Part shown: positions 10,096 through 60,872 of the stretch, piece after piece | How the letters are laid out: each line of letters opens with the position of its first letter | How positions within the stretch are numbered: position 1 is the stretch's first letter | Source: Centroscyllium fabricii | Taxonomy: Eukaryota | Assembly (NCBI GenBank): GCA_051313645.2 | Contig: JBNRSN020000002.1 | Coordinates: 101,122,001-101,186,000 of the forward strand | Length of the DNA: 64,000 nt | Direction of reading: 5' to 3' | The notes under the pieces: model-generated | What the model was told of the DNA's origin: nothing | What the model saw: the letters and a program-made list of their open reading frames with translations, nothing else | Database searches by the model: none | Translations under genes and position numbers: made by a program

Positions 10096-12440
10096 ACTGT
10101 ATTTCTTCATTCATCAGTGACCGAAAACTTGAAATCATTTTTGTTGCTCTTGTCTGCTCTGCCCTGCTTACTTTTAAAATTAAAATGGAAAGTTTTGAAG
10201 CACTTGGAAAATGTTTTTATCTCTACAGTACACTTATTTTTCAAAATGAGTTTTTAATTTGTGGAAAATTGTCTCACAGTTTGATCACAGATAGCAATGT
10301 GTAAAATTATAAGATTATAAAAATACTCTGATATCTTCAAAAGTGTAACATTTATTCTTTGTAGATATTTACATTGAGACCCCTATCTGTTAGATGCCTG
10401 AATAATTCATAAAAAAAATTTGTTTAGCCAGTGTATGGTTTCACGTTTGAAATAAGAGCTCAACTTGAGATAGGGGTTAAAAATATATCCTTTGATCAGT
10501 GAGTGAGTCTCAAGCCTCCATCGTTCCTTTTTGTGATTGTTAACAGTTCTCAGCAAGGGGAAATCCCCATCTATGTGTTCCCTCCGAGCTGAATTAAGTG
10601 TCTTAGCCAACTGTGTCATCTAGCCTTTCAGCAAAGAGCTGACCTTTAGCTTGTTGAGATGGCATGAAATCACTTAGACAGGGTACTGATCTTTAAAGGA
10701 AAAAAATCTGTATGTTACAGTCAAGGTAGTCTCATTCCAGACAGACAGTTTTTAATGGAACTAGGTTGATATCAGGACTATGAGAATGTTACAATTTTAC
10801 ATCAGGCTTAAATGTTTGAATTAATTCATTAATTAATTTGAATAGTGAGGAATTTTCACAGCCATTACTTAACAGTAATACTCTCCTTCCATCTCCCTCC
10901 CCACACACTACCCACCATGTAGTATGTGCATCTATTATCATGTTGCATTATGAAATATTATTCAACGCCATTGAATAATACCACCGTCGATATTTACTTT
11001 AATTTGAAGAATGGCATGAAGAATCATTTCAAACAATACCAAGAAAGTAAAACACAGTTGGTTAATTACAATTCACAAGAATTCAAAACCAGGAGGGATA
11101 GTTCTAACAAAGATCACCGTCTCAAAAGAATTTTATTTTGAGATTGAATAATGTCACTTAACTCTTTGAAGGTTACATTATGTTTGCAACTTTCCAGAAT
11201 AAATGCTTTTTGGTGCGTCAGGCCTGAGAGGATTCTGTGCTCCAGTTCTTTTCTCCATCTGTCTACATATTACTATGACTGTAATTGAGACAGATAATAG
11301 GCATTATGTCTCGCCTATGTCGAGGAAACTTGGGAGCTTTTGGATTAACAGAAAGTCGAGTTTAAATTTCAGAGACTGATGTTGCAAGCTGATGGCATTT
11401 CATTTTGTTAATAATGCAAATTCCAGCTAAGGCCAGTTCAGGCCAGTTGACATGGCTTTCACTGGTATCAATTAAAATTTACAGCTGGGTTAGTTCCGTC
11501 TGCCAACACTATGTACTGCTCGCGCCAGGTAACCTGTTTCAGGTTTTCTGCCGATGCTACTATTTAATCAATTATTATGAGATGGAATAGAACAACCCAG
11601 TTTGATTCACTCACTAATTTGTTTTTCCTCCCTCGAATGGATTGCCTGGGATCAGGAATTCACCCAGTAGGGTAATCCCAACTGTGCAGCTGCAGCCTGT
11701 AACTGAACACATTACAGACTGCCTACAGCTCGCTTGTTCCGAGTGTGTTACCATCCCATAATGTGCTGCAATGACAAGGCACCTTGTCTTTATTTCCATC
11801 TTTCCAATTTTCTAATTTCCTATCTTGAAAGCACAGACTCATTATGGGGTTCAATTCTATGAGTGTCAGACATCTACTGGTAAACTGGATCTAGTGAGAA
11901 TGAGGAATTTTAAGAAATTAATATTGGTAAAAATAATACTGGAAAAATTAATGGCACTAAAAGCCAACAAATCCCCAGGACCTGATGGGCTATATCCTAG
12001 GGTTTTAAAAAAGGTGGCTACAGAAATAATGGATGCTTTGGTGTTCATCTTCCAGAATTCACTAGATTCTAGAATGGTCCCCACAGATTGGAAGGTGGCA
12101 AATATAACCAGGCTATTCAAGAAAGGAGGGAGAGAGAAAACAGGGAACTATAGACCAGTTAGCCTGACATCAGCTGCAGGGAATCTATTATTAGGGATGG
12201 GGTAACATGGCACTTTGCCCAATCAAACTATGATTTTCTAAGTGCCATGTTACCCCATCCCTAATAATAGATGTCAGCATGGATTTATGTAAGGGAAATC
12301 ATGTTTGACAAATCATTTTGACATTTTTCAGGTTGTAACTAGCAGGGTAGTGTATTTGGATTTTCAGAAAGCATTTGAAAAGGTGCCACACAAGAGGTTA
12401 TTACACCAAGTTAGGGCTCAAACGATTGGGGGTAATATAT

Positions 12441-14310
12441 CCCATCGTACAGAGAACCCCCAGCTTCTGTCGCGACACTACAGACGTCTTACAGCAACTC
12501 AGCACCCACGGACCAGTTGAACCAGGAACACTCCTCGCCACAATGGACATCTCGGCACTCTGCACCAGCATCCCCCACGATGACGGCATTGCTGCGACAG
12601 CCTCAGTACTCAACACCAACAACAGCCAATCTCCAGACGCCATCCTACAACTCATCCTCTCCATCCTTGACCACAATGTCTTCACCTTCGACAACCAGTT
12701 CTTTACCCAAACACACGGAACAGCCATGGGGACCAAATTCGCACCCCAATACGCCAACATCTTCATGCATAAGTTTGAGCAAGACTTCTTCGCTGCACAG
12801 TATCTCCAACCAACGCTATACACCAGATACATCAACGACATTTTCCTCCTATGGACCCACGGCGAAGAATCACTGAAAAGACTACACGACAACATAAACA
12901 AGTCCCATCCCACCATCAAACTCACCATGGACTACTCCTCAGAATCGGTTTCATTATTGGACACACGAATCTCCATCAAAGTCGGACACCTCAGCACTTC
13001 ACTCTACCGCAAGCCCACGGACAACCTCATGATGCTCCACTTCTCCAGCTCCCACCCTAACCACGTTAAAGAAGCCATCCCCTATGGACAAGCCCTGCAA
13101 ATACACAGGATCTGCTCAGACGAGGAGGAACGCGATGGACACCTACAGACACTGAAAGATGCCCTCGTAAGAACGGGATATGATACTCGACTCGTCGATT
13201 GACAGTTCCGATGGGCCACAGCAAAAAATCGCACAGACCTCCTCAGAAGACGACCACGGGACACAACCAACAGAGTAGCCTTTGTCGTCCAGTACTTCCC
13301 CGGAGCGGAGAAACAACGCCATGTTCTTCGCAGCCTTCAACATGTCATCGATGACAATGAACATCTCGCTAAGGCCATCCCCGCACCTCCACAACTTGCC
13401 TTCAAACAGCCACCTAACCTCAAACAGACCATCGTTCGCAGCAAATTACCCAGCTTTCATGAGAACAGTAACCACGACACCACACAACCCTGCCACAGCA
13501 GCCTCTGCAAGATGTGTCAGATCATCAATACAGATACCATCATCACATGTGAGGACACCACACACCAGGTACATGGTACATACTCATGTGACTCGGCCAA
13601 CATTGTCTACCTCATAGGTTGCAGGAAAGGATGCCCCGGAGCATGGTACATCAGCAAGACCATGCAGACGCTGTGACAACGGATGAATGGACACCGCACA
13701 ACAATCACCAGGCAGGAGTGTTCCCTCCCAGTCGGGGAACACTTCAGCAGTCAAGAACATTCAGCCTCCGATCTTCGGGTAAGCATTCTCCAAGGCGGCC
13801 TTCAAGACACACGACAACGCAAAATCGTCGAGCAGAAACTGATAGCTCAGTTCCGCACTCATGAGGATGGCCTCAACCGGGATCTTGGCTGCATGTCATG
13901 CTACATGTAACCCCACCTGATGTAGAGTCATCCAGACTCCAGTCATCTTTGGCTTGTTCTCACTAAGACATTTTTTTAAATTGTTCTGTGTTGGTTTTTC
14001 ACACAGACCACAGCATGTGCAACATTTGACCCTTTGTGACTCCACCTCATTGTTCTTCGGGTGGTGTCTGCCTGACTGATCTGTTTGGACACCATTCACA
14101 CCTTTGATTGCTATAAATGTCTCTCTGCCGAGGTGTGATGAAGGGCAGTTGGAAAGATTTCCTGTAATCATCCAGCATTGTTCTCCGACTATATATGCTG
14201 TGTTTGTATGCATCTCTCTACTACACCTGATGAAGGAGCAATGCTCTGAAAGCTTGTGATTTCAAATAAAACTGTTGGACTATAACCTGGTGTTGTGTGA
14301 CTTCTGACAT
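12441..14310 (+). mobile_element. Penelope-like retroelement (probably Neptune-type), 5'-truncated: RT + Cys motif + GIY-YIG endonuclease + pLTR
   Basis: MDISALCTSIP, GTAMGTKFAPQYANIFM, YTRYINDIF, LYRKPTD; PCHSSLCKMC; NIVYLIGC...WYISKT; PVGEHF; GLNRD; a few stops; 11-bp TSD GGGTAATATAT (12430-12440, 14311-14321). Confidence 0.93.
14224..14258 (+). ncRNA. Minimal type I hammerhead ribozyme motif in the PLE pLTR (family A)
   Basis: CAC-CTGATGA-A-GGAGC(AAT)GCTCT-GAA-AGCT-T-GTG: catalytic core, stem II, palindromic stem III, 3-bp stem I. Confidence 0.8.
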
Positions 14311-14556
14311 GGGTAATATATTAGCATGGATTGAGGATTGGTTAACAGAGAGAAAACAGAGAGTAGGAATAAACGGGTCATTTTCAGGATGGCAGGGTGT
14401 TACTAGTGGTGTGCTTGGGCCTCAGCTATTTGCAATCAATGACTTGGATGAGGGGACCGAGTATTATGTATCCACGTTTGCTGATCATACAAAGCTAGGT
14501 GGGAAAGTAAGTTGTGAGGAGGATGCAAAGATGCTGCAAAAGGATATAGACAGATT

Positions 14557-20330: not shown

Positions 20331-21164
20331 GGCCGAAAAATTCGTCAGCGCACAAAATGGGCGCTAAATTTGACGCTATGCAAAAATTTACCGCCGGCGC
20401 TAAATTAGCGCCGATGCACCCGATATTGGCGCTAGTGGTGGCCTTGATGATTTTGGCGCAAATTCCCGCCTTGCGCGAGAGTCAGGCGGCTAATATCCCG
20501 GCGCTAATGGCTGTTCCCGGGCGCAGCGCTCTCTGACTAACTGCTTGCTTCCCCTTCGCCTCTGCAGCCGATGAGGCATTAAAGGGGGAGCAGCAGCTGT
20601 TCTCCGTGCTGTCTGAGCAGTTGCGTCTCAGAGAGAGCGGAGAGAGGGGCCGGCTCTGTGATCAGTGGCGTCTTGCAGAGAGGGGGGAGGGCAGCTCTCT
20701 GATCATTTGCGTCTTGGTGGGTCACCGCGACCCCCTCCCGCGGCCACTCTCTGCAAGACGCCAGTGATCACAGAGCCGGCCCGCTCTCTGCAAGACGCCA
20801 TCAATTGGCCGCTGAGGCCGACTCCCACCATCAGCTGGCCGCGCTCGGGCTGAAGAGGGAGGGTGGCCCTTTTACCAGCGCTGCAGCGGCCACTCAAAGC
20901 CGCTGCAGCGCTTGCAAAAGCTGTCGCTAATAGCGCGGGTGGCGCTGCGAAGGCGCTAAGGCCAATATCGGGCGCAGGCCATTGCATATGCATTGCCATG
21001 ACGATTGTTGATCGTTAGGCGGTGCAGCGCTAGCGTTTAGCACCGGCGCTAACCACCATGCCAATTTAGCGCCCGCCGCTAATTGGGGCACTACGTTGGC
21101 GCTGCCCTATTAGTGCCGATTTTCGGCGCTAATGGGCTGGTGCTAAGGGGCCAATTTCATGCCC
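20331..21164. mobile_element. GC/CpG-rich Harbinger-type MITE inserted in a CR1 tail
   Basis: Ends GGCCGAAAAATT / AATTTCATGCCC; ATA on both sides; many TAGCGC/GCGCTA subterminal motifs. Confidence 0.75.
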
Positions 21165-21441: not shown

Positions 21442-21579
21442 AACTATTAGATTCAGCCTGTCCCTACATTATCCTGTTATTCTGTGCTACGGTGCTGGCA
21501 ACAGCTTGATTCCTGATGGGAATAGTGGCAACTGGTTAGCAGGGAAAGAAGCAGTAGCAGCTCCATTCTATCACTCAGT

Positions 21580-21763
21580 GGGGTTAATCTTAACTCTTGG
21601 TGATAGTGTAAAACAGGCGCTATCGGATTGTCGACCATTATACACCCCAGCCTCTTTTCCCTTCCATTGAAGTCAACAGAAAGGAAAATTGAACGAGGTG
21701 TATAATGGGCGGCCAATCGATGTCATCTGTTTTACATTATCACCAAGAGTTAAAAGTGGCCCC
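21580..21763. mobile_element. Fold-back MITE
   Basis: Long imperfect inverted arms (ttaactcttggtgatagtgtaaaacag / ctgttttacattatcaccaagagttaa); GGGG...CCCC ends; AGT on both sides. Confidence 0.8.
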
Positions 21764-22018
21764 AGTGACACATCTTTTTATTCACCGCTCTGGGATCTAT
21801 CTTCCTGCATGCATCAACTGTAGAAAGATGCAGATTTACCATCTGTTTTAAGTACCATTTTATTTTTAAAAGCCTCTACTTATTAATTTGTACTCCATGT
21901 TTTTTCCTTCCTTTTGTCACTGCTTTTTTCAACCCTGCCGTCTTGTGCTCAGAACACCAGTGCTGAGGTATGTGGCCATTGCAATGAGGTTCCTGAAGTG
22001 AATGTTGCTAAATTCTAT

Positions 22019-22850: not shown

Positions 22851-24022
22851 GATGGCTTGGAGAGATTTGCAATTGGGCTAAAGTGTGTGAGGCGTTGGCT
22901 GCATACACAAGGTGGTGGACATTTCCCTCCTCAACACCACTCTCTTTTTGGGCCATTTTTTCTAGTGCAAAAGGTAGAAACTTCCAAGAGAGTCTGTTAG
23001 GAGTTGAGGTTATCCCAAAATTCATAAATCTAGCGAAAGGGCTCTATTAACCTAGAGCATTTATAGTTTGAATTACAACCTCATCATTTCCAGTTTTTAT
23101 TTCCTTGTTTCTATGGGAAAATAACTCACCGCCACCCAGCAACTGCCCATAGTGATATGACTGAAATACAGAGCTTGTTATTTGAGGAATTGTGGGGGCA
23201 TCACTGTGCCGATCACTCAATGATGCAGCACATTGGAGCACTCTGTGAGTGGCCCTCGAGCAAAATGCTGCTTGGAAACTTGGCCCTTGATAAAAAGTTA
23301 GTAACATTGGTTTGAAGTCATCCTAGCTCTTATCCTTCAGCACAACAAACTTGTCTGTCAGCATAAAGAACTCCTGTCTCTCTCCTTTTCTTGAAAGGTT
23401 CATTAATATTCATTAACCACAGGGGTGTTTCTAACAAAGGAACTAATCTGCATCACCGTGTTTTACACTGAGCTGCACGCTTCTTATTCCCAACCCCCCT
23501 GACATGATTGACATGCATATATCAGCTAATTACACTTCAAAGCCCTTAAGTATCTAAGCCATTGAGCCAGGACCTAGGACTCTTTATGACACAGAATCAT
23601 ATTGCATTAAATTCCACAAGGTCATGACGACTTAACCCTTTTGTCTCCAGCTTCACTGTCTGTACGTATTAACAGCTATAATCTAACTCCCAGAGCCCAA
23701 GTACCATAACTTATGATCCAGATATATGGGATGGTGCATGTTGTTGGCTCTTCAATATATAAGGGCAAGTCTTATGAGCCTTTACTCCTGGCAGGGAGCT
23801 TTACCCACCAGGAATGCATATCAAGAAATCACTTTCTCCATCGTTTTCTGTTCACTAACGGACAAACATTTGTAGGGAGCATGTCTATGATTTCCAAACA
23901 TACACCCCTGGCAGATGGATTGATGACAAGGTGCAGCATACCTGAGATTTTCCAATGTACACTCCTGCTGGGCAAGGCTTCCTGCCGGGAGCACACGTTT
24001 GTCTCTGTATTACTACAAAGTA

Positions 24023-24177
24023 TGATGTGGAGGTGCCGGTGTTGGACTGGGGTGGACAATTGCAAGAAGTCACACAACACCAGATTATAGTCCAACAGTT
24101 TTATTTTAAATCACAAGCTTGTGATTTAAAATAAAACTGTTGGACTATAATCTGGTGTTGTGTGACTTCTTGCAATT
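24023..24177 (-). mobile_element. PLE pLTR-derived fold-back mini-element (family A) containing a perfect 120-bp palindrome
   Basis: Palindrome 24058-24177 centred on AAGCTT; arms match PLE 14250-14305; direct repeat ATTACTACAAAGTA at 24009-24022 and 24175-24188. Confidence 0.88.
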
Positions 24178-24604
24178 ACTACAAAGTACTGAGACACATA
24201 TTTGTCCCAATACTCAACTCCACTGAATTCCCAGTCTCTGCCATGCAACTGCAGGAAAGTACTCAGCAGGAGCCAGGTACTGCCTTCTTCTTCTTCTTCT
24301 CTTCTCATACAGAGAGGAAAGGACAATCGAGAATGCTCCCTGGCCTCCTGGCGGCTATCTCAAACAAGCATCGTCAGAGTCCTAGGAGTAGATTATGATC
24401 CTTCCCTCTCATCCACAAGTCAAATTGTATTAATCATATTGCATTAAATTCCACAAGGAGAAAAAAAAATGGGGTGGGGAAGAAATTTAAGAATATAAAT
24501 TCTTATATAATAAAAACAAACATTGTAAATATCCATCCTGCTTCTAAAATGTCCTTCCATTTTTAAATTGGATATTGTTTTTTTCAGTGCATTGCATATA
24601 AGTG

Positions 24605-27410: not shown

Positions 27411-27704
27411 TTTAACCAATGGCATTAACAGACACAAAAAAACTATTCAGTGGATAAATGTAGTCATTCATTATGAAATATGCAATTTTGTGATGTCTTT
27501 ATGTTATGATCCTCATTTTGGATGTTTGAAACTACAGTTACTGAAGAAAAATTGGTTGAGGAGAAAAACACTTCAGAAAGCATTTTGAACAATTTGTGTG
27601 GAACTGCTGGCTAGATTGTGCAATCACAGGGTGCTGCACTCTCACAATAAAATAGTACGAAGTCACACAACACCAGGTTATAGTCCAACAGTTTTATTTT
27701 AAAT

Positions 27705-27739
27705 CACAAGCTTTCGGAGCGCTGCTCCTTCGTCAGGTG
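27705..27739 (-). ncRNA. Minimal hammerhead ribozyme motif (family A)
   Basis: Minus strand CAC-CTGACGA-A-GGAGC(AGC)GCTCC-GAA-AGCT-T-GTG, perfect 5-bp stem II. Confidence 0.82.
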
Positions 27740-27748
27740 TATGGCATA

Positions 27749-27783
27749 CACCTGATGAAGGAGCTTCGCTCTGAAAGCTTGTG
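27749..27783 (+). ncRNA. Minimal hammerhead ribozyme motif (family A)
   Basis: CAC-CTGATGA-A-GGAGC(TTC)GCTCT-GAA-AGCT-T-GTG. Confidence 0.8.
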
Positions 27784-28087
27784 ATTTCTAATAAAACTGT
27801 TGGACTATAACCTGGTGTTGTGTGACTTCTTACAATTGTCCACCCCAGTCCAACACCGGCACCTCCACATCACAATAAAATAGCAACTACAGTGTGTCAA
27901 ACAGCGGGATACCTTTAACATTGAAAATATCTATCATACTGACACCTACAGTAGTAATAGGCATTTATATTCAGTTTTCAATGAAATGCATGACCCATAT
28001 TGCAAATTTAATATAATAGTTCTATTCAATTTCCCCCATATTTTCCCCTTCCCACAGCTACCTCTGTCAGACTGTCTGTTAGGCAGT

Positions 28088-28977: not shown

Positions 28978-30585
28978 TTAAGTGGCCTCTTTTCCAAACC
29001 CTCACTTACTTGGTACAAGTTACAAATCTGTTTCGAATGAAAACATCTGCATCTGAGAGTAATGCAAATAACTTTAGATTTCATGGTAAGACAAACATGA
29101 AATGCTGCTCTAAGACATCCTAACAGATACCTCCGAGTAAGTATTGCTGAGGTAATTGAATAGTAAATGGAGATATTGACAGAAAACGAGGCTGTTTTAT
29201 TCGAATACTTGTCATAATGTTCTCCCAGTTGCCGGATGTGTAACATGTCAGTTTTACACGCTGTGTGGGGCAGCCTGGTGCGCAAGCATGTCGCACCCTT
29301 CCTGCTCCCAGCGCCGAAGCATAGGCGAACTGTCAGCTTGAAGCAGTCAACGAGAGAGCAGCGAGGCACGACGGAGCAAAACAAATCTGGAGGGAGAGCG
29401 CGCAGATCGCCACACCACAGGAAGCCAGATCATGGGGCTCTATTGACGAGAGGGGGAAAACAAGGCGAGAGGAAGTAGTGACACCAATTAAATGCCTCGG
29501 CTACACATAAAACCTATTTACGGAGAGAAAATTGTTTGCCTTTGAAAAACACTTACTCGCACTTGAAGTGACTTTAGGGGATTTTTCACTTTCTTTGATA
29601 AGGCTAATAAATTTAACAGCAGATAATCACACTGACTAGAGTAACCTAGTCTGGTGCACAGCTGGTTTGGGGGTTGTCTGGGGACCAGAGTGTTTCTGGC
29701 ATACTAATTAGTGGAAAATGTCAAAGTAAAACTAAAATACCTTTATATAATTTGAAGGAGAAGAGAAATTTACATGACAAAGGCTCTCTTACCACAGGGC
29801 TGAATTAAAAAAAAACAATTGCTGTTTATATATGACCTGATTTTTTTTGTCATTCATTTCCAGAAGGAAGGGGCAATTTACCCATGTTTTTCCAAACATG
29901 AAATATACCTGTCATAATATTTATAAAATTGTGCTATCTCCAATGGAGCAGGTTGGAGGCTGACGTTTTAGCTTTATGCAAAAAGGGAGTCGTAAATAAG
30001 TCATTTTGCCTCAGATAAATCCTCCATCGTTCCCCATCATTGTCACACACAAGCAGAGATGACAGTTGATTATTCCATCAATTGTCATGGAGACGCCTGC
30101 AGTGTTTATGAATTTTTATATGTTGCAGGCTTTTTTCTATCTATATATATATACATATATATAGATATAAATAGCATGCTAAAACTTCAATTCTTATTTC
30201 CTTTCTTCCCGCCCACCCCCCCGCTCTCTCCCCCGAAAATGTCGAATCTGTCTGACAGTGAATTAGATTAAATGTGACATCGGGCATGAGAGCTTGTTAT
30301 AGGTAGACGGTACCCTGGGTTGAATATTAGAGGGAGGGGGGAAAGAGTGGGCTCAGCTGTTCCACTGAACCTAAATTAATAGATGGCCTGCTTTAAAGGG
30401 GCAGTGTCTTCATTAAAAATATTGTGCAAACTTTAATTTTAAAAATAATTTCAGATGGAGAGGAATCTCCAGATCATTTTCTTCACTTTTTAAGTGTATA
30501 TAAATGTATCATACTTTGCAATATGATTCTCATATTGTATTTTATTTTCCAGTTCCCACAACGACATCCACTGTAACCTCCAACA

Positions 30586-33675: not shown

Positions 33676-33888
33676 GGGCCTAGAAATTGGATCACGTTCG
33701 AATTGGGGAGAAATCCAGGTACTGCGTACGCTGCAGGTGCCGAATGAGGCCAGCAGCAAGACCACAGCAAATTGATCCACAGGCCTCATTGTTTTTGTCA
33801 CCAGCGGGCTGCAGGTATGAATGAACAACTTTAAAAGCCCACCTGCCCTATTGCCGCTGGATGGGTTGGGTTAAAATTCCCCCCCCCC
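33676..33888. mobile_element. Short Harbinger-type MITE abutting the satellite
   Basis: AAT|GGGCCTAGAAATT start; AAAATTCCCC end. Confidence 0.45.
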
Positions 33889-33889
33889 G

Positions 33890-36800
33890 ACACAGTGGTA
33901 CAGAGACACACCGAGACAGTGGCACACTGACACTCAAGATACTGGCACACTGTGACACGGGCACACTGCAACACGGACACACTGCGACACAGACACACTA
34001 CAACAAGGACACACTGCGACACGGGCACACTGTGACACAGGCACACTGCGACACGGACACACTGCGACACGGACACACTACAACAAGGACACACTGCAAC
34101 ACGGGCACACTACAACAAGGACATACTGCGACACGGATACACTGCAACAAGGACACACTGCAACACGGACACACTACAACAAGGACACACTGCGACAAGG
34201 ACACATTGCGATACGGGCACACTGCGACAAGGACACACTGCGACAAGGACACACTGCGATACGGGCACACTGCGACAAGGACACACTACAACAAGGACAC
34301 ACTGCAACACGGACGCACTGCGACACGGACACACTGCGACAAGGACACACTGCAACAAGGACACACTGTGACACGGGCACACTACAACAAGGACACACTG
34401 CGACAAGGACACACTGCGACACGGACACACTACAACAAGGACACACTGCGACACGGACACACTGCGACACGGACACACTGCGACAAGGACACACTGCGAC
34501 ATGGACACACTGCAACAAGGACACACTGCGACACGGACACACTGCGACACGGACACACTGCAACAAGGACACACTGCGACACGGACACACTGTGACATGG
34601 ACACACTGCGACAAGGACACACTGCGACACGGACACACTGCGACAAGGACACACTGCGACACGGACACACTGCAACATGGACACACTGCGACAAGGACAC
34701 ACTGCGACACGGGCACACTGCAACAAGGACACACTGCAACAAGGACACACTGCGACACGGACACACTGCGACACGGACACACTGCAACAAGGACACACTG
34801 CAACATGGGCACACTGCAACATGGACACACTGCGACACGGACACACTGCAACAAGGACACACTGCAACATGGGCACACTGCGACACGGGCACACTGCAAC
34901 AAGGACACACTGTGACACTGACACACTGCGACACAGGCACACTGCGACACGGATACACTGCGATACGGGTGCACTGTGACATGGGCACACTGTGACACTG
35001 GCACACTATGACACTGCGAAATGTAGAAACTGCAACAAGGACACACTGCGACATGGGCACACTGCGACACACGCACACTGCAACAAGAACACACTGTGGC
35101 ACTGGCACACTGACAGGGGCACACTGCAACAAGAACATACTGCGGCACTGGCACACTGGCACGGGCACACTGCGACACGGGCACACTGCGACACACGCAC
35201 ACTGCAACAAGAACACACTGTGGCACTGGCACACTGACAGGGGCACACTGCAACAAGAACATACTGCGGCACTGGCACACTGTGGCACGGGCACACTGCG
35301 ACACGGGCACACTGCGACACTAGCACACTGTGACATGGGCACACTGCGACATGGGCACACTGTGACACTAGCACACTGCACCATGGGCACACTGCGACAT
35401 GGACACACTGCGACACAGACACATGGTGACACTGGCACACTGCGATATGGGCACACTGTGACATGGGCACACGGCGACACTGGCAAACTGTGACACCGGC
35501 ACACTGCAACAAGGACACACTGTGACACTGGCACACTGCGACACGGGCACACTGCGACAAGGACACTACGACACTGGCACACTGTGACACTAGCACACTG
35601 TGACAGTGGCACACTGCATCACTGGCACACTGCAACAAGGACACATTGCAACACAGACACACCGACATGGGCACACTGCGACATGGGCACACTGCAATAC
35701 TGGTGCACTGCAGCGCAGGCACACTGCGACACTGGCACACTGCCACACGGGCACACTGCGACACTGGCACACTGCGACACTGGAGCTCTGCGACAAGGAC
35801 ACAGCGACAAGGACACAGCGACACTTTCACACTGCAACACTGGCACATTGCAACAAGGACACACGGTGCCATGGGCACACTGCGACATGGGCACACGGTG
35901 ACATGGGCACCTGGTGACATGGGCACACTGCGACATTGGCACACTGCAACACTGGCACACTGCGACACTGGCACACTGTGACATGGGCACACTGCAACCA
36001 GGACACACTGCGACATGGGCACACTGCAATACTGGCGCACTGCAATGCAGGCACACTGCGACACTGGAACACTGCCACACGGGCACACTGCGACACTGGC
36101 GCTCTGCGACAAGGACACAGCGACACTTTCACACTGCAACACTGGCACATTGCAACAAGGACACATGGTGTCATGGGCACACTGCGACATGGGCACACTG
36201 TGACACGGGCACCTGGTGACATGGGCACACTGCGACATGGGCACACTGCAACACTGGCACACTGCAACACTGGCACACTGCGACATGGGCACACTGCAAC
36301 ACGGGCACTGCGACAAGGACACACTGCGTCATGGGTACACTGTGACAAGGGCACACTGCAACCAGGACACACTGCGATGTGGGCACACTGCGGCACTGGC
36401 ACACTGTGACTCTGGCAAACTGCGACACTGGCACACTGCGACACTGGCACATTGCAACAAGGACAGACTGCGACACGGGCACACTTTGACACTGGCACAC
36501 TGCGACACTGGCATACTGTGACACTGGCACACTGTGACATGGGCACACTGCGACACAGGCAATCTGTGACACTGGCACACTGCGGCATGGGCACACTGTG
36601 ACACGGGCACACAGCAACATGGGCACACAGTGACATGGGCTCACTGCAACACTGGCACACTGTGACATGGGCACACTGTGACATGGGCACACTGCAACAC
36701 GGGCACACTGTGACACGGGCACACTGTGACATGGGCACACTGGCACGGGCACACTGCAACAAGGACACAGTGCGACATTGGCACACTGCAACACTGGCAC

Positions 36801-39800
36801 ACTGCAAAACTGGCACACTGCAACATGGACACATTGTGACATGGGCACACTGCGACACAGGCACACAGCAACAAGGACACACTGCAACATGGGCACATTA
36901 GCGACACTGGCACACTGTGACACGGGCACACTGCAGCGCGGGCACATCACGACATGGGCACTATGTGACACTGGCACACTGCAATAAGGACACACTGTGG
37001 CACAGGCACACTGCAACACTGGCACACTGCGACTCTGGCACACTGTGAAACTGGCAAAACTGTGACACTGGCACACTGCAACACTGGCACACAGCAACAC
37101 GGATACAATGTGACATGGGCACACTGTGACACGGGCACACTGCAACACAGACAATCTGTGACATGGGCACACTGCAACACTGGCACACTGTGACATGGGC
37201 ACACTGCAACACTGGCACACTGCGACGTGGGCACACTGCGACACTGGCACACTGTGGCACTGGCACACTACATCACTGGCACACTGCAACAAGGACACAC
37301 TACAACATGCGAACACTGCGACCCGGGTACACTGCAATACTGGTGCACTATGACATGGGAACACTGTGACACTGGCACACTGCAACACAGGCACATTGCG
37401 ACATGGACACACTGCGACATGGGCACACTGCGACACTGACAAACGGTGACACAGGCACATTGCGACATGGGCACACTGCGACACTGGCACACTGCAATAC
37501 TGGTGCTCTGCGACAAGGACACAGCGACACTAGCACACTGCAACAAGGACACACGATGACATGGGCATACATGCGACATGGGTACACTGTGACTGGCACA
37601 CTGCGACATGGGGCACACTGCAATACGGGCACTGCGACACGGACACACTGCAACATGGGCACACTGCGGCACTGGCACACTGCGACACGGGCACACAGTG
37701 ACATGGGCACACTGCAACACTGGCACACTGCGACATGGGCACACTGCAACACTGGCACACTGCGACACGGGCACATGGTGACATGGGCACACTGTGACAC
37801 GGGCACACTGTGACACGGGCACACTGCAACACGGGCACTGCGACAAGGACACACTGCATCACGGGCACACTGCAACAAGGGCACACTGCGGCAAGGACAC
37901 ACTGCGACCCGGGCACACTGCGGCACTGTCACACTGCGACACTGGCAAACTGCGACACTGGCACACTGACACTGGCACATTGCAACAAGGACCACTGCGA
38001 CACGGGCACACTGTGACACTGGCACACTGCAACCCTGGCACACTGTGACACAGGCACACTGCGACACTGGCACACTGTGACTTGGGCACACTGCGACACA
38101 GGCACACTGTGACACGGGCACCCTGCGACACAGACACCCTGTGACACTGGCACACTGCAACACTGGCACACTGCAACACGGGCACACAGTGACATGGGCA
38201 CACTGGCACACTGTGACATGGGCACACTGTGACATGGGCACACCGTGACATGGGCACACTGTGACATGGGCACACTGCGACACTGGCACACTGAGACACG
38301 GCACACTGCGACACTGGCACACTGTGACATGGACACACTGCAACACTGGCACACTGTGACATGGGCACACTACAATACTGGCACACTGTGACATGGACAC
38401 ACTGCAACACTGGCACACTGCAACACAGGCACACTGCGACATGGGCACACTGCAACATGGACACATTGCAACACGGGCACACTGCGACACGGACACACTA
38501 CAACAAGGACACACTGCAACACGGGCACACTACAACAAGGACATACTGCGACACGGATACACTGCAACAAGGACACACTGCAACACGGACACACTACAAC
38601 AAGGACACACTGCGACAAGGACACACTGCGATACGGGCACACTGCGACAAGGACACACTGCGACAAGGACACACTGCGATACGGGCACACTGCGACAAGG
38701 ACACACTACAACAAGGACACACTGCAACACGGACGCACTGCGACACGGACACACTGCGACAAGGACACACTGCAACAAGGACACACTGTGACACGGGCAC
38801 ACTACAACAAGGACACACTGCGACAAGGACACACTGCGACACGGACACACTACAACAAGGACACACTGCGACACGGACACACTGCGACACGGACACACTG
38901 CGACAAGGACACACTGCGACATGGACACACTGCAACAAGGACACACTGCGACACGGACACACTGCGACACGGACACACTGCAACAAGGACACACTGCGAC
39001 ACGGACACACTGCGACATGGACACACTGCGACAAGGACACACTGCGACACGGACACACTGCGACAAGGACACACTGCGACACGGACACACTGCAACATGG
39101 ACACACTGCGACAAGGACACACTGCGACATGGGCACACTGCAACAAGGACACACTGCAACAAGGACACACTGCGACACGGACACACTGCGACACGGACAC
39201 ACTGCAACAAGGACACACTGCAACATGGGCACACTGCAACATGGACACACTGCGACACGGACACACTGCAACAAGGACACACTGCAACATGGGCACACTG
39301 CGACACGGGCACACTGCAACAAGGACACACTGTGACACTGACACACTGCGACACAGGCACACTGCGACACGGATACACTGCGATACGGGTGCACTGTGAC
39401 ATGGGCACACTGTGACACTGGCACACTATGACACTGCGAAATGTAGAAACTGCAACAAGGACACACTGCGACATGGGCACACTGCGACACACGCACACTG
39501 CAACAAGAACACACTGTGGCACTGGCACACTGACAGGGGCACACTGCAACAAGAACATACTGCGGCACTGGCACACTGGCACGGGCACACTGCGACACGG
39601 GCACACTGCGACACACGCACACTGCAACAAGAACACACTGTGACACTGGCACACTGACAGGGGCACACTGCAACAAGAACATACTGCGGCACTGGCACAC
39701 TGTGGCACGGGCACACTGCGACACGGGCACACTGCGACACTAGCACACTGTGACATGGGCACACTGCGACATGGGCACACTGTGACACTAGCACACTGCA

Positions 39801-42800
39801 CCATGGGCACACTGCGACATGGACACACTGCGACACAGACACATGGTGACACTGGCACACTGCGATATGGGCACACTGTGACATGGGCACACGGCGACAC
39901 TGGCAAACTGTGACACCGGCACACTGCAACAAGGACACACTGTGACACTGGCACACTGCGACACGGGCACACTGCGACAAGGACACTACGACACTGGCAC
40001 ACTGCATCACTGGCACACTGCAACAAGGACACATTGCAACACGGACACACCGACATGGGCACACTGCGACATGGGCACACTGCAATACTGGTGCACTGCA
40101 GCGCAGGCACACTGCGACACTGGCACACTGCCACACGGGCACACTGCGACACTGGCACACTGCGACACTGGAGCTCTGCGACAAGGACACAGCGACAAGG
40201 ACACAGCGACACTTTCACACTGCAACACTGGCACATTGCAACAAGGACACACGGTGCCATGGGCACACTGCGACATGGGCACACGGTGACATGGGCACCT
40301 GGTGACATGGGCACACTGCGACATTGGCACACTGCAACACTGGCACACTGCGACACTGGCACACTGTGACATGGGCACACTGCAACACGGGCACTGCGAC
40401 AAGGACACACTGCGTCATGGGTACACTGTGACAATGGCACACTGCAACCAGGACACACTGCGACATGGGCACACTGCAATACTGGCGCACTGCAATGCAG
40501 GCACACTGCGACACTGGAACACTGCCACACGGGCACACTGCGACACTGGCGCTCTGCGACAAGGACACAGCGACACTTTCACACTGCAACACTGGCACAT
40601 TGCAACAAGGACACATGGTGTCATGGGCACACTGCGACATGGGCACACTGTGACACGGGCACCTGGTGACATGGGCACACTGCGACATGGGCACACTGCA
40701 ACACTGGCACACTGCAACACTGGCACACTGCGACATGGGCACACTGCAACACGGGCACTGCGACAAGGACACACTGCGTCATGGGTACACTGTGACAAGG
40801 GCACACTGCAACCAGGACACACTGCGATGTGGGCACACTGCGGCACTGGCACACTGTGACTCTGGCAAACTGCGACACTGGCACACTGCGACACTGGCAC
40901 ATTGCAACAAGGACAGACTGCGACACGGGCACACTTTGACACTGGCACACTGCGACACTGGCATACTGTGACACTGGCACACTGTGACATGGGCACACTG
41001 CGACACAGGCAATCTGTGACACTGGCACACTGCGGCATGGGCACACTGTGACACGGGCACACAGCAACATGGGCACACAGTGACATGGGCTCACTGCAAC
41101 ACTGGCACACTGTGACATGGGCACACTGTGACATGGGCACACTGCAACACGGGCACACTGTGACACGGGCACACTGTGACATGGGCACACTGGCACGGGC
41201 ACACTGCAACAAGGACACAGTGCGACATTGGCACACTGCAACACTGGCACACTGCAAAACTGGCACACTGCAACATGGACGCATTGTGACATGGGCACAC
41301 TGCGACACAGGCACACAGCAACAAGGACACACTGCAACATGGGCACATTAGCGACACTGGCACACTGTGACACGGGCACACTGCAGCGCGGGCACATCAC
41401 GACATGGGCACTATGTGACACTGGCACACTGCAATAAGGACACACTGTGGCACAGGCACACTGCAACACTGGCACACTGCGACTCTGGCACACTGTGAAA
41501 CTGGCAAAACTGTGACACTGGCACACTGCAACACTGGCACACAGCAACACGGATACAATGTGACATGGGCACACTGCGACACGGGCACACTGCAGCACGG
41601 ACAATCTGTGACATGGGCACACTGCAACACTGGCACACTGCGACATGGGCACACTGCAACACTGGCACACTGCGACGTGGGCACACTGCGACACTGGCAC
41701 ACTGTGGCACTGGCACACTACATCACTGGCACACTGCAACAAGGACACACTGCAACAAGGACACACTACAACATGGGAACACTGCGACCCGGGTACACTG
41801 CAATACTGGTGCACTATGACATGGGAACACTGCGACACTGGCACACTGCAACACAGGCACATTGCGACATGGACACACTGCGACATGGGCACACTGCGAC
41901 ACTGACAAACGGTGACACAGGCACATTGCGACATGGGCACACTGCGACACTGGCACACTGCAATACTGGTGCTCTGCGACAAGGACACAGCGACACTAGC
42001 ACACTGCAACAAGGACACACGATGACATGGGCATACATGCGACATGGGTACACTGTGACTGGCACACTGCGACATGGGGCACACTGCAATACGGGCACTG
42101 CGACACGGACACACTGCAACATGGGCACACTGCGGCACTGGCACACTGCGACACGGGCACACAGTGACATGGGCACACTGCAACACTGGCACACTGCGAC
42201 ATGGGCACACTGCAACACTGGCACACTGCGACATGGGCACATGGTGACATGGGCACACTGTGACACGGGCACACTGTGACACGGGCACACTGCAACACGG
42301 GCACTGCGACAAGGACACACTGCATCACGGGCACACTGCAACAAGGGCACACTGCGGCAAGGACACACTGCGACCCGGGCACACTGCGGCACTGTCACAC
42401 TGCGACACTGGCAAACTGCGACACTGGCACACTGACACTGGCACATTGCAACAAGGACCACTGCGACACGGGCACACTGTGACACTGGCACACTGCAACC
42501 CTGGCATACTGTGACACAGGCACACTGCGACACTGGCACACTGTGACTTGGGCACACTGCGACACAGGCACACTGTGACACGGGCACCCTGCGACACAGA
42601 CACCCTGTGACACTGGCACACTGCGACACTGGCACACTGCAACACGGGCACACAGTGACATGGGCACACTGGCACACTGTGACATGGGCACACTGTGACA
42701 TGGGCACACCGTGACATGGGCACACTGTGACATGGGCACACTGCGACACTGGCACACTGAGACACGGCACACTGCGACACTGGCACACTGTGACATGGAC

Positions 42801-43330
42801 ACACTGCAACACTGGCACACTGTGACATGGGCACACTACAATACTGGCACACTGACATGGACACACTGCAACACTGGCACACTGCAACACAGGCACACTG
42901 CGACATGGGCACACTGCAACATGGACACATTGCAACACGGGCACACTGACACGGGCACACTGCAGCAAGGACACACTGCCACACGGGCACACTGCCACAC
43001 TGGCACACTGCGACATGGGCACATTGTGACATGGGCACACTGCGACACAGGCACACTGCAACAAGGACACACTGCAACATGGGCACATTAGCGGCACAGG
43101 CACACTGCGACACGGGCACACTGCGATGCGGGCACAATGCGACATGGGCACACTGCGACACTGGCACACTGCACTAAGGACACACTGCGACACAGGCACA
43201 CTGCAACACTGGCACACCGCGACACTGGCACACTGTGAAACTGGCACATTGCGATGCTGGCACACTGCAACATCGGCACACTGCGACACAGATACAGTAA
43301 TACACAGACACTGATAAGATGACACTGAGA
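33890..43330. repeat. ~9.4-kb tandem array of a 16-bp unit (ACACTG[CG/TG/CA]AC-[ACGGG/ACTGG/AAGGA/ATGGG]-C) with ~4.4-kb higher-order duplication
   Basis: Direct reading; marker GAAATGTAGAAAC at ~35018 and ~39438 (offset 4420); ORF-track twins at offsets 4420/4450/4466. Confidence 0.97.
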
Positions 43331-43334
43331 CATT

Positions 43335-43863
43335 GGGGTAAATTTTCCCTCGGGTGTGGGGAATTGGCGGGTTTGCAGCGGGTCAGGTTTCCCACACGAA
43401 TACTAAAGGGCCTGGGAGCCCCACGCAATTTTGGCTCAATTGGCCAATTGATTCCCCGCATGTGGGAACCCTTGCCAATTGACTATTTCCAGTCTGAAAG
43501 TCAGCGGGGTGCCGGCTGCTTAAAGACCAGAGCGCCGTTTCAATGAGAGGCACAGCACAGCACTCTCATTGACAGCTGCTAGTCAGTTTCAATGAGAGGC
43601 GCAGCACAGCTCTCTCACTGACAGCAAAAAGAGCTACAAGGTGAGTTACTGAAAAGCTATATTCTCCCTGAAATTGCACACCCTGGTGATACAGTTAGCC
43701 CTCCTGCAGGCTGCTGCCTAGGGCTGACTTCTGGTACAGCTGATTGCATGTCATCCTTTGACTTGCAGCTGATACTCAGCAAGCCGATTGTATCCCCGCG
43801 TTTGCTATTTTGCGCCCCGTCCCGCCGGAAAACCCGCCTCACGGCTCATTGAAAATTGACCCC
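43335..43863. mobile_element. Harbinger-type MITE
   Basis: GGGGTAAATTTTC / GAAAATTGACCCC; flanks ATT/ACT. Confidence 0.75.
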
Positions 43864-59795: not shown

Positions 59796-60172
59796 GATGA
59801 CACGGTGGCGCAGTGGTTTGCACTGCTGCCTCGCAATAAGGAGCTCCTGGGTTTGAATTCTGTTTGGCCCGAGACCTCTCTGCGTGGAGTTTGCATGTTC
59901 TCCTCGTGCTCGTGTGGGTTTCCTCCGGGTACTCTGGTTTCCTCCCACCACCCAAAGACGTGCAGGTTAGGTGAATTGGAGATACTAAAAATTGCCCCTG
60001 AGTATGTGTGTGAGATATTGTTCTTAGAGTTGGGGGTGTCGGGGGATATGGGGAGAGGGTAGGAGGGGGGTGTTGGGTTTGGATGATCAGCCATGATCTC
60101 ATCAAAATGGCGGAGCAGGCTCGAAGGGACGAATGGCCTACTCCTGCTCCTATCTTCTGTGTTTCTGTGTTA
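59796..60172 (+). mobile_element. V-SINE (HE1-like): tRNA head, V domain, CR1-derived tail
   Basis: ggtggcgcagtgg A box; gtggagtttgcatgttctcc...gggtttcctccggg V domain; CR1 3' UTR. Confidence 0.88.
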
Positions 60173-60183
60173 CTCCTGTCTTT

Positions 60184-60447
60184 ATAGAAACATAGAAACA
60201 TAGAAGATAGGAGCAGGAGCAGGCCACCCAGCCCCCCGAACCCGCCCCACCACTCAACGAGACCATGGCTGACCACCCAAAACCAGCACCCCGTCCCCGC
60301 CCCGCCCCACACCCCCGATCCCCCCAACACTAAGGGTCAACCTATCATGGCCAATCAACCTAACCCGCACATCTTTGGACTGTGGGAGGAAACCGGAGCA
60401 CCCGGAGGAAACCCACGCAGACATGGGGAGAATGTGCAAACTCCACT
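60184..60447 (-). mobile_element. Second V-SINE (HE1-like), 5'-truncated, tail-to-tail with the first
   Basis: gaaaccggagcacccggaggaaacccacgcagacatggggagaatgtgcaaactccac. Confidence 0.88.
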
Positions 60448-60611
60448 TTGTATACTCTGCAGCAGCATCAGGTACTCCCAGATCAGCTATAGCACAGTTA
60501 TAAAACAGTAAATTCCCTGGCTTGTACTGAAATGGGAGATCCACTATTGTGGGATAATACAAAGGCTGTGGACGGCTGGCAGTCAGGTGCAAGGCAAAAT
60601 CCTGTTTTCTT

Positions 60612-60849
60612 CTTCAAACACAAAAGCAAAATACTGCGGATGCTGGAAATCTGAAATAAAAACAGGAAATGCTGGGAATACTCAGCAGGCCAGGCAGCAT
60701 CGAGGAGAGAGAAACAGTTCACATTTCAGGTCGATGATGACCTTTCATCAGAACTGACGAAGGGTCATCGACCTGAAACGTTAACTCTGTTTCTCTTTCT
60801 ACAGATGCTGCCTGATCTGCTGAATGTTTCCAGCATTTCCTGTTTATAT
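60612..60849. mobile_element. Fold-back mini-element with two opposed hammerhead cores (family B)
   Basis: Plus CTGACGA-A-GGGTC(ATC)GACCT-GAA-ACGT-T-AACT at 60754-60786; minus AGTT-CTGATGA...GAAA at ~60716-60755; 12-bp TSD TCCTGTTTTCTT (60600-60611, 60850-60861). Confidence 0.85.
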
Positions 60850-60872
60850 TCCTGTTTTCTTGTTGTTCGGTT

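What the first reader, a model, noticed from the sequence alone, without database searches (positions are those of the whole stretch)
27642..27883. TSD-flanked fold-back mini-element with two intact hammerhead motifs on opposite strands
Seen: a 171-bp near-perfect inverted repeat (centre G at 27744); each arm carries CAC-CTGAYGA-A-stem II-GAA-AGCT-T-GTG, and the unit is flanked by an 11-14-bp direct repeat. The arms match the 3' end of the PLE at 14224-14305. The stem II loop differs in all three family A copies (AAT, TTC, AGC) while stem and core are kept. Established: PLE pLTRs carry minimal type I hammerheads with a palindromic helix III that cleave as dimers, and PLE insertions often have inverted pLTR segments. 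Inference: this is a non-coding ribozyme-bearing unit made by PLE machinery. A transcript from either strand would contain one ribozyme plus its antisense, so self-cleavage competes with a long dsRNA hairpin (possible Dicer/ADAR substrate).
Basis: partly seen in the sequence, partly recalled or inferred. Interest (0 to 1): 0.8.

Follow-up and report, generated by a model that had tools for sequence, protein, structure and literature searches.

The report
Truncated fold-back Penelope retrotransposon insertion
This hairpin-shaped piece of DNA with two mirror-image hammerhead ribozyme motifs is real, but it is one of thousands of short dead-end insertions left by a known kind of jumping gene, not a new self-spreading ribozyme element.

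Summary
In detail: a 171-bp inverted repeat centred on G27744, two opposite-strand minimal hammerhead (HHR) motifs and an 11-14-bp target-site duplication.

It is a 5'-truncated, head-to-head insertion of a Neptune-like Penelope element (PLE). The tail has 40,076 exact genome matches. At least 6,839 loci hold two closely spaced head-to-head HHRs; the first 50 have 50 different junctions, and this junction occurs once. Inverted pLTR, tail, TSD and opposite-strand HHR pairs are all published PLE features.

Any read-through RNA makes the antisense arm first, and the hairpin is about 50 kcal/mol more stable than the ribozyme fold, so self-cleavage is unlikely.

Residual interest: arm ends pile up just upstream of the HHR, and in 13 of 64 unbiased loci the two arms carry different multi-site HHR alleles while downstream sequence usually matches. 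This argues against pure self-copying and hints at template switching near the junction.

The parts
27642..27655 (+). Left target-site duplication (14 nt; 11 unambiguous, 27645-27655)
   Evidence: family TSD mode 12-13 nt
27656..27743 (-). Inverted arm: last ~88 nt of a PLE pLTR in reverse, starting at the pLTR end, no tail
   Evidence: 94% to 14222-14304
27705..27739 (-). Minimal type I hammerhead motif, loop AGC, G10.1-C11.1 kept; predicted cut between 27708 and 27707
   Evidence: cut site inferred from standard HHR numbering, not tested
27744..27744 (.). Head-to-head junction centre, 8 nt upstream of each catalytic core; this junction 23-mer is unique in the genome
27745..27837 (+). Direct arm: 5'-truncated pLTR end
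27749..27783 (+). Minimal type I hammerhead motif, loop TTC, G10.1-U11.1 wobble; predicted cut between 27780 and 27781
27838..27872 (+). One-sided 35-nt PLE tail; in full-length copies it joins the 5' pLTR to the ORF start codon
   Evidence: 40,076 exact matches
27870..27883 (+). Right target-site duplication (27873-27883 unambiguous)
12440..14309 (+). Same-family 5'-truncated, disrupted PLE (RT, GIY-YIG, 3' pLTR with HHR core at 14227); ends at the pLTR end without a tail; 10-nt TSD
24023..24177 (-). Second same-family fold-back, centred on the helix III palindrome at 24115-24120; no HHR core; tail and 14-nt TSD present

Best explanation
The unit is a dead-end, 5'-truncated insertion of an endonuclease-positive, Neptune-like Penelope element. 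Shown: its parts are the pLTR end, the tail and a staggered-cut TSD, and each insertion has its own junction. Inferred, from in vitro work on another PLE: the RT-GIY-YIG protein nicks both target strands about 12 nt apart; both 3' ends prime cDNA at the two internal start sites (tail end next to the ATG, and pLTR end about 35 nt upstream); both cDNAs stop just past the hammerhead, probably at the 5' end of the transcript; the two ends are joined head-to-head by a few nt of microhomology or filler. The two HHRs are passengers. The copy has lost its promoter region and would fold as a hairpin, not as a ribozyme.
For: In 100 consecutive tail matches on contig C1, 61 had a self-inverted match and 55 a head-to-head copy starting near the pLTR end (8 atypical loci moved to the other class). 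44 of 54 of these have an exact TSD of at least 8 nt, mode 12-13, against 3 of 200 controls; unit lengths run from 156 to 1387 nt. Junction unique; 50 of 50 junctions distinct among the first 50 of 6,839 loci. Full-length copies with open frames of about 890 codons from the ATG have pLTR-tail-ATG order, RT, GIY-YIG and a C-x4-C-x2-C linker. A second copy and a second HHR family in the same window show the same layout. Literature: inverted 5'-truncated copy plus 30-40 bp tail (PMC8557442); inverted pLTR, palindromic junction, 8-10 bp TSD (PMC3846280); dual minimal HHRs on opposite strands read as truncated PLEs (PMC4209133); both strands cut and extended, two RT start sites flanking the tail, HHR not needed for insertion (PMC11167929).
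Against: Some short junctions do recur: 542 loci fold back at the helix III palindrome and several 3-8-nt junctions repeat in the list, so small propagating subsets are not excluded. The transcription start near the HHR is inferred only from a TATA-like word at 14190-14196 and the pile-up of arm ends. 37 of 55 loci have both arms ending within 20 nt of the same element position, which snap-back self-priming explains at least as simply as two primings. No biochemical or RNA data were obtained.
Confidence: 0.86

Rival explanations
1. Same ordinary class, but the inverted arm is made by self-priming or snap-back: one cDNA folds back and copies itself (or an antisense RNA primes itself, as proposed in PMC3846280). 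This differs from the best explanation only in how the second arm is made.
For: Arm ends are symmetric (37 of 55 within 20 nt; Spearman 0.67). Long-armed and young copies have near-identical arms, private variants included. 11 rare alleles are shared by both arms of one locus against 0.75 expected.
Against: 13 of 64 unbiased loci have arms with HHR alleles that differ at several linked sites, and 219 loci pair two specific alleles; a self-copy cannot give these without later conversion. The window copy differs between arms at N7, loop II and a downstream subfamily site. About a third of loci have unequal arms.
Confidence: 0.3
2. A non-autonomous, propagating fold-back ribozyme element (retrozyme-like or SINE-like).
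For: Very common layout: 36 of 100 tail-bearing insertions have two complete opposite-strand cores by position; unit lengths cluster at about 190-270 nt; a few junctions recur.
Against: Unique junction; 50 of 50 distinct junctions; the 39 closest look-alikes also differ at the junction. No tandem head-to-tail repeats as in retrozymes. The HHR fold is negligible in the hairpin (stem II pair probability below 1e-10). The recurring palindrome junction occurs in both main subfamilies, which fits repeated origin.
Confidence: 0.05
3. The inverted repeat arose after insertion (replication template switch or break repair at a solo pLTR), or is an assembly artefact.
For: Long palindromes are prone to such events (general knowledge); no independent contig spans the centre.
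Against: The TSD encloses both arms and the tail; inverted arms start at a fixed point about 35 nt before the tail end across loci; both flank junctions are matched by contigs of two runs; the arms carry different family alleles.
Confidence: 0.04

Closest known systems
Complex insertions of EN+ Penelope-like elements: 5'-truncated copy, adjacent inverted pLTR, one-sided tail, TSD (PMC8557442 Fig. 2 legend; PMC3846280)
   Same: Head-to-head inverted pLTR ends, palindromic junction, 35-nt tail on one side, TSD, AT-rich target.
   Different: TSD mode 12-13 nt here against 8-10 bp in the Adineta examples; the very short symmetric form is dominant here (at least 6,839 loci); arms often carry different HHR alleles, which I did not find reported.
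Minimal type I hammerheads of metazoan PLE pLTRs (PMC4209133)
   Same: Conserved core, extra nucleotide between 9 and 10.1, palindromic 15.2-16.2, no real helix III, high within-genome variability, pairs on opposite strands.
   Different: Pairs here are about 15 nt apart against about 100-700 bp in Schistosoma; stem II 5 bp, stem I 3 bp; the right arm has lost G10.1-C11.1; H17 is U.
Non-LTR retrozymes (PMC7229834; bioRxiv 10.64898/2026.07.22.740005)
   Same: Non-coding, type I HHR, PLE-derived, TSD.
   Different: Retrozymes are head-to-tail tandem repeats processed to circular RNA; this unit is head-to-head with a unique junction and has one sense HHR per strand.
Poseidon element PAc of Anolis (PMC11167929)
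   Same: Tail bounded by two family-wide end points; AT-rich targets; HHR in the pLTR.
   Different: In PAc the ORF starts inside the HHR and the start sites lie about 111-118 nt into the ORF; here the tail ends at the ATG, 90 nt downstream of the HHR cut site, and the protein has a Neptune-type Cys linker.

Membership tests
EN+ PLE insertion unit | Sequence derives from the pLTR of an RT-GIY-YIG element | tested here: met
   GIY-YIG read by eye from the translation (Pfam scored only RVT_1)
EN+ PLE insertion unit | Inverted 5'-truncated copy adjacent at the 5' end, head-to-head | tested here: met
EN+ PLE insertion unit | 30-40 bp tail at one end only | tested here: met
   35 nt at 27838-27872; no locus with both tails among 50
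EN+ PLE insertion unit | Target-site duplication | tested here: met
   11-14 nt here; 44 of 54 loci at least 8 nt
Neptune/Nematis clades of PLE | CX2-5CxxC linker between RT and EN | tested here: met
   C-x4-C-x2-C in both translations printed; definition passages
Neptune/Nematis clades of PLE | Phylogenetic placement of the RT | not tested
   no tree with reference PLEs was built
Minimal type I HHR of PLEs | Core boxes, extra nucleotide between 9 and 10.1, palindromic 15.2-16.2 | tested here: met
   both arms
Minimal type I HHR of PLEs | G10.1-C11.1 pair | tested here: inconclusive
   met in the left arm; G-U in the right arm
Minimal type I HHR of PLEs | Self-cleavage as a dimer or with protein help | not testable with these tools
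   needs an in vitro assay; in the full unit the fold is outcompeted
Non-LTR retrozyme | Head-to-tail tandem units with same-strand HHRs | tested here: not met
   single head-to-head unit
Non-LTR retrozyme | Circular RNA intermediate | not testable with these tools
   no raw RNA reads available
Propagating non-autonomous element (SINE/MITE-like) | Many copies share one internal structure and junction | tested here: not met
   1 genome match to this junction; 50 of 50 distinct

The most novel reading that the evidence does not exclude
The short fold-backs are paired run-off ('strong-stop'-like) cDNAs of the PLE transcript's 5' end, and the hammerhead region is a template-switch point. In roughly a fifth to a quarter of short units, one arm's junction-proximal 20-40 nt (the HHR core and stem II) comes from a different family member, while the outer arm matches its partner. 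If RT jumps at the ribozyme cut, or between RNAs paired through the helix III palindrome, PLE hammerheads act as recombination points. That would explain their reported within-genome variability, and thousands of loci would record the PLE insertion pathway. Against a cut-site rule: when the junction lies further upstream, N7 alleles mismatch in only 2 of 50 loci against 13 of 50, so the effect may be tied to the junction, not the ribozyme.
Probability: 0.2. Interest if true: 0.6.

Novelty: new member of a known kind. Interest (0 to 1): 0.27.

Why it matters
As an object it matters little: the layout and opposite-strand HHR pairs are described, and this copy is inert debris. The population is more useful. 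How PLEs make head-to-head inversions (self-priming or double priming), and what their hammerheads do, are open questions. This genome offers over 122,000 exact HHR motifs and at least 6,839 close head-to-head pairs with polymorphic markers, so arm-versus-arm comparison can test the models at scale. Thousands of near-perfect 85-bp hairpins could also be a dsRNA source where they lie in introns, but that is untested.

Tried and rejected
Rfam scan of the whole window: no hammerhead family at E up to 5; only sub-threshold miRNA hits on hairpins, which reflect perfect stems. Expression: no RNA holder listed; the contigs laid cannot show start, end, strand or level. Same-junction family: rejected; L001 differs from the window junction by one base but was the top hit of 1,012 candidates. 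Pile-up of truncations at the predicted cut site: not seen in the 100-locus sample, although 542 loci fold back at the adjacent palindrome. 'Crossover always at the HHR cut site': weakened, because allele mismatch falls when the junction is further away (N7 13 of 50 against 2 of 50, counted by eye, Fisher p 0.004; p13 9 against 4 of 50, p 0.23; trend p 0.11), and two loci (L229, L249) mix matching and mismatching sites downstream. Age dependence within subfamily: none seen, small numbers. The zone profile for upstream sequence is not usable, because alignments ran across the junction. The count of strongly discordant pairs at long spacer was not obtained. Pfam did not detect the GIY-YIG domain. 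Dfam and Repbase could not be searched, so the family may already be named. Literature searches for arm discordance or template switching at PLE hammerheads found nothing relevant; subscription papers are outside the library, and supplement file 1 of PMC4209133 could not be searched.

Full report
1. Observation. The inverted repeat is as described: 85-nt arms (27659-27743, 27745-27829) around G27744, with 79 Watson-Crick pairs, 2 G-T and 4 mismatches; -148.3 kcal/mol, z -24. Each arm holds a minimal type I hammerhead motif and matches the 3' end of the PLE at 14222-14309 at 94%. The direct repeat is 14 nt, 11 of them unambiguous. Two things were missed. A 35-nt segment (27838-27872) follows the right arm only. 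The right arm's stem II closes with G10.1-U11.1, whereas PMC4209133 lists G10.1-C11.1 as highly conserved. H17 is U, which I recall as the weaker cleavage base; no call tested this. Contigs of two public runs match both flank junctions exactly, but none listed spans the centre.

2. Parent family. A protein search of the window's own 7.2-Gb genome scored 150 of 35,441 candidates. I fetched the 12 loci chosen for long open frames. Several show pLTR, tail, ATG, an ORF of about 890 codons, then pLTR; the tail ends at the start codon. The protein has an RT domain, a GIY-YIG motif read by eye, and a C-x4-C-x2-C linker, the mark of the Neptune/Nematis clades (passages); no tree was built. The tail has 40,076 exact matches and the HHR pattern 122,414.

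3. Is it a propagating unit? The junction 23-mer occurs once. The 39 closest look-alikes differ at the junction, and 35 of 39 have an exact TSD of at least 8 nt. For an unbiased view I took the first 100 tail matches on contig C1. 61 had a self-inverted match; 55 were kept as head-to-head copies after 8 atypical loci were moved to the other class. Of 54 measurable, 44 have a TSD of at least 8 nt (mode 12-13; control 3 of 200), and lengths run from 156 to 1387 nt. A pattern for two cores within 24 nt finds 6,839 loci; the first 50 have 50 different junctions. Against full uniqueness: 542 loci fold back at the helix III palindrome and some 3-8-nt junctions repeat (one search list). The palindrome junction occurs in both main subfamilies, which fits repeated microhomology joining. 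The window itself holds a palindrome-centred copy (24023-24177) and a fold-back of a second HHR family with its own tail and 12-nt TSD (60612-60849).

4. Known or not. PMC8557442 (passages) describes the inverted 5'-truncated copy and the 30-40-bp one-sided tail. PMC3846280 (passages) describes inverted pLTRs, palindromic head-to-head junctions and 8-10-bp TSDs, and proposes self-priming. PMC4209133 (parts 1-2 of 4 and one supplement passage) reports dual minimal HHRs about 100-700 bp apart on opposite strands as probable truncated PLEs, low in vitro activity, and unexplained within-genome variability. PMC11167929 (parts 1-2 of 4) shows both strands cut and extended, two RT start sites bounding the tail, a protein-assisted HHR, and no need for cleavage in insertion. 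Retrozymes are head-to-tail arrays (PMC7229834 passages; bioRxiv 10.64898/2026.07.22.740005 part 1 of 5 and passages). PMC6155905 (passages) added only background. Two earlier AI notes on other genomes reached the same reading; they are not independent support.

5. Mechanism. Shown: parts, TSD, fixed outer ends, variable junction. Inferred: double priming at the two start sites, then end joining. Both arms end between -35 and +10 of the core's first base in 28 of 55 loci. A TATA-like word lies 31-37 nt upstream of the core in the window PLE, so the pile-up may mark the transcript's 5' end; this is inference. Both arms end within 20 nt of the same element position in 37 of 55 loci, which also fits snap-back.

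6. Ribozyme versus hairpin. In a head-to-head unit either strand's transcript makes the antisense arm before the sense HHR. Forcing the HHR fold raises the energy from -144.5 to -89.6 kcal/mol (plus strand) and from -141.9 to -93.1 (minus strand); the stem II pair probability is below 1e-10. Isolated arms do fold into stems I and II. Self-cleavage in the unit is therefore unlikely, and expression could not be tested.

7. Arm comparison, the unexpected part. Of 143 pairs, 83 had both HHRs and downstream sequence scorable; 64 of these were from unbiased sets. 28 of 64 differ at some HHR feature after merging CpG decay, and 13 of 64 differ at several linked features. Downstream subfamily sites differ in 4-5 of 64 each. 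A pattern for one strongly discordant allele pair finds 219 loci. In 48 of 50 fetched that were scorable, downstream sites stay largely concordant (3, 6 and 7 of 48 differ, against 12.8, 12.4 and 20.8 by permutation). Rare variants shared by both arms number 3 (0.08 expected), and 5 in 29 of 30 loci discordant at N7 (0.18 expected); the 23 concordant controls have 1. So many arms are not self-copies, yet their outer parts look like one template. Results against a ribozyme-specific cause: with 90-120 nt between cores (1,476 loci) N7 mismatch is 2 of 50 against 13 of 50 (by eye; p 0.004); young full-length copies have identical arms; co-expressed templates of one period plus occasional arm-to-arm conversion could give the same pattern; the window copy differs downstream too. 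I found no paper on this.

8. Verdict. A real feature of a known kind: a truncated head-to-head PLE insertion with passenger hammerheads (confidence 0.86). Interest 0.27. The novel reading, template switching at or near the ribozyme recorded in thousands of loci, has probability about 0.2 and would merit about 0.6.

Noticed in passing
window 24009-24188: Same-family fold-back centred on the helix III palindrome, no catalytic core, tail on the minus strand, 14-nt TSD; 542 loci share this junction type.
   Followed up: partly
window 60600-60861: Fold-back of a second HHR-bearing family (about 80% arm identity), own one-sided tail, 12-nt TSD; H17 is also U in one arm.
   Followed up: partly
window 12430-14320: The truncated PLE sits inside a CR1-like LINE fragment, has a 10-nt TSD and ends at the pLTR end without a tail.
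   Followed up: partly
window 33830-43380: About 9.5-kb tandem array of a degenerate 16-nt unit with long Cys/His-rich open frames that are by-products of the repeat.
   Followed up: no
window 21575-21768, 20660-20769, 60136-60224, 30110-30188: Other imperfect hairpins; only sub-threshold Rfam miRNA hits.
   Followed up: no
window 62861 region (minus strand): Another HHR-like motif resembling the second family.
   Followed up: no
L146-L151: Young full-length family members with intact ORFs and tandem pLTRs; pLTR interiors carry short internal tandem duplications.
   Followed up: partly
G000:C125:1148228-1330254 and C180:2312468-2372941: Five dual-HHR loci with the same 3-nt junction clustered on two contigs, probably segmental or tandem duplicates.
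   Followed up: no
L045: Tail directly preceded by an inverted arm with no direct arm: an extreme truncation of the same layout.
   Followed up: no
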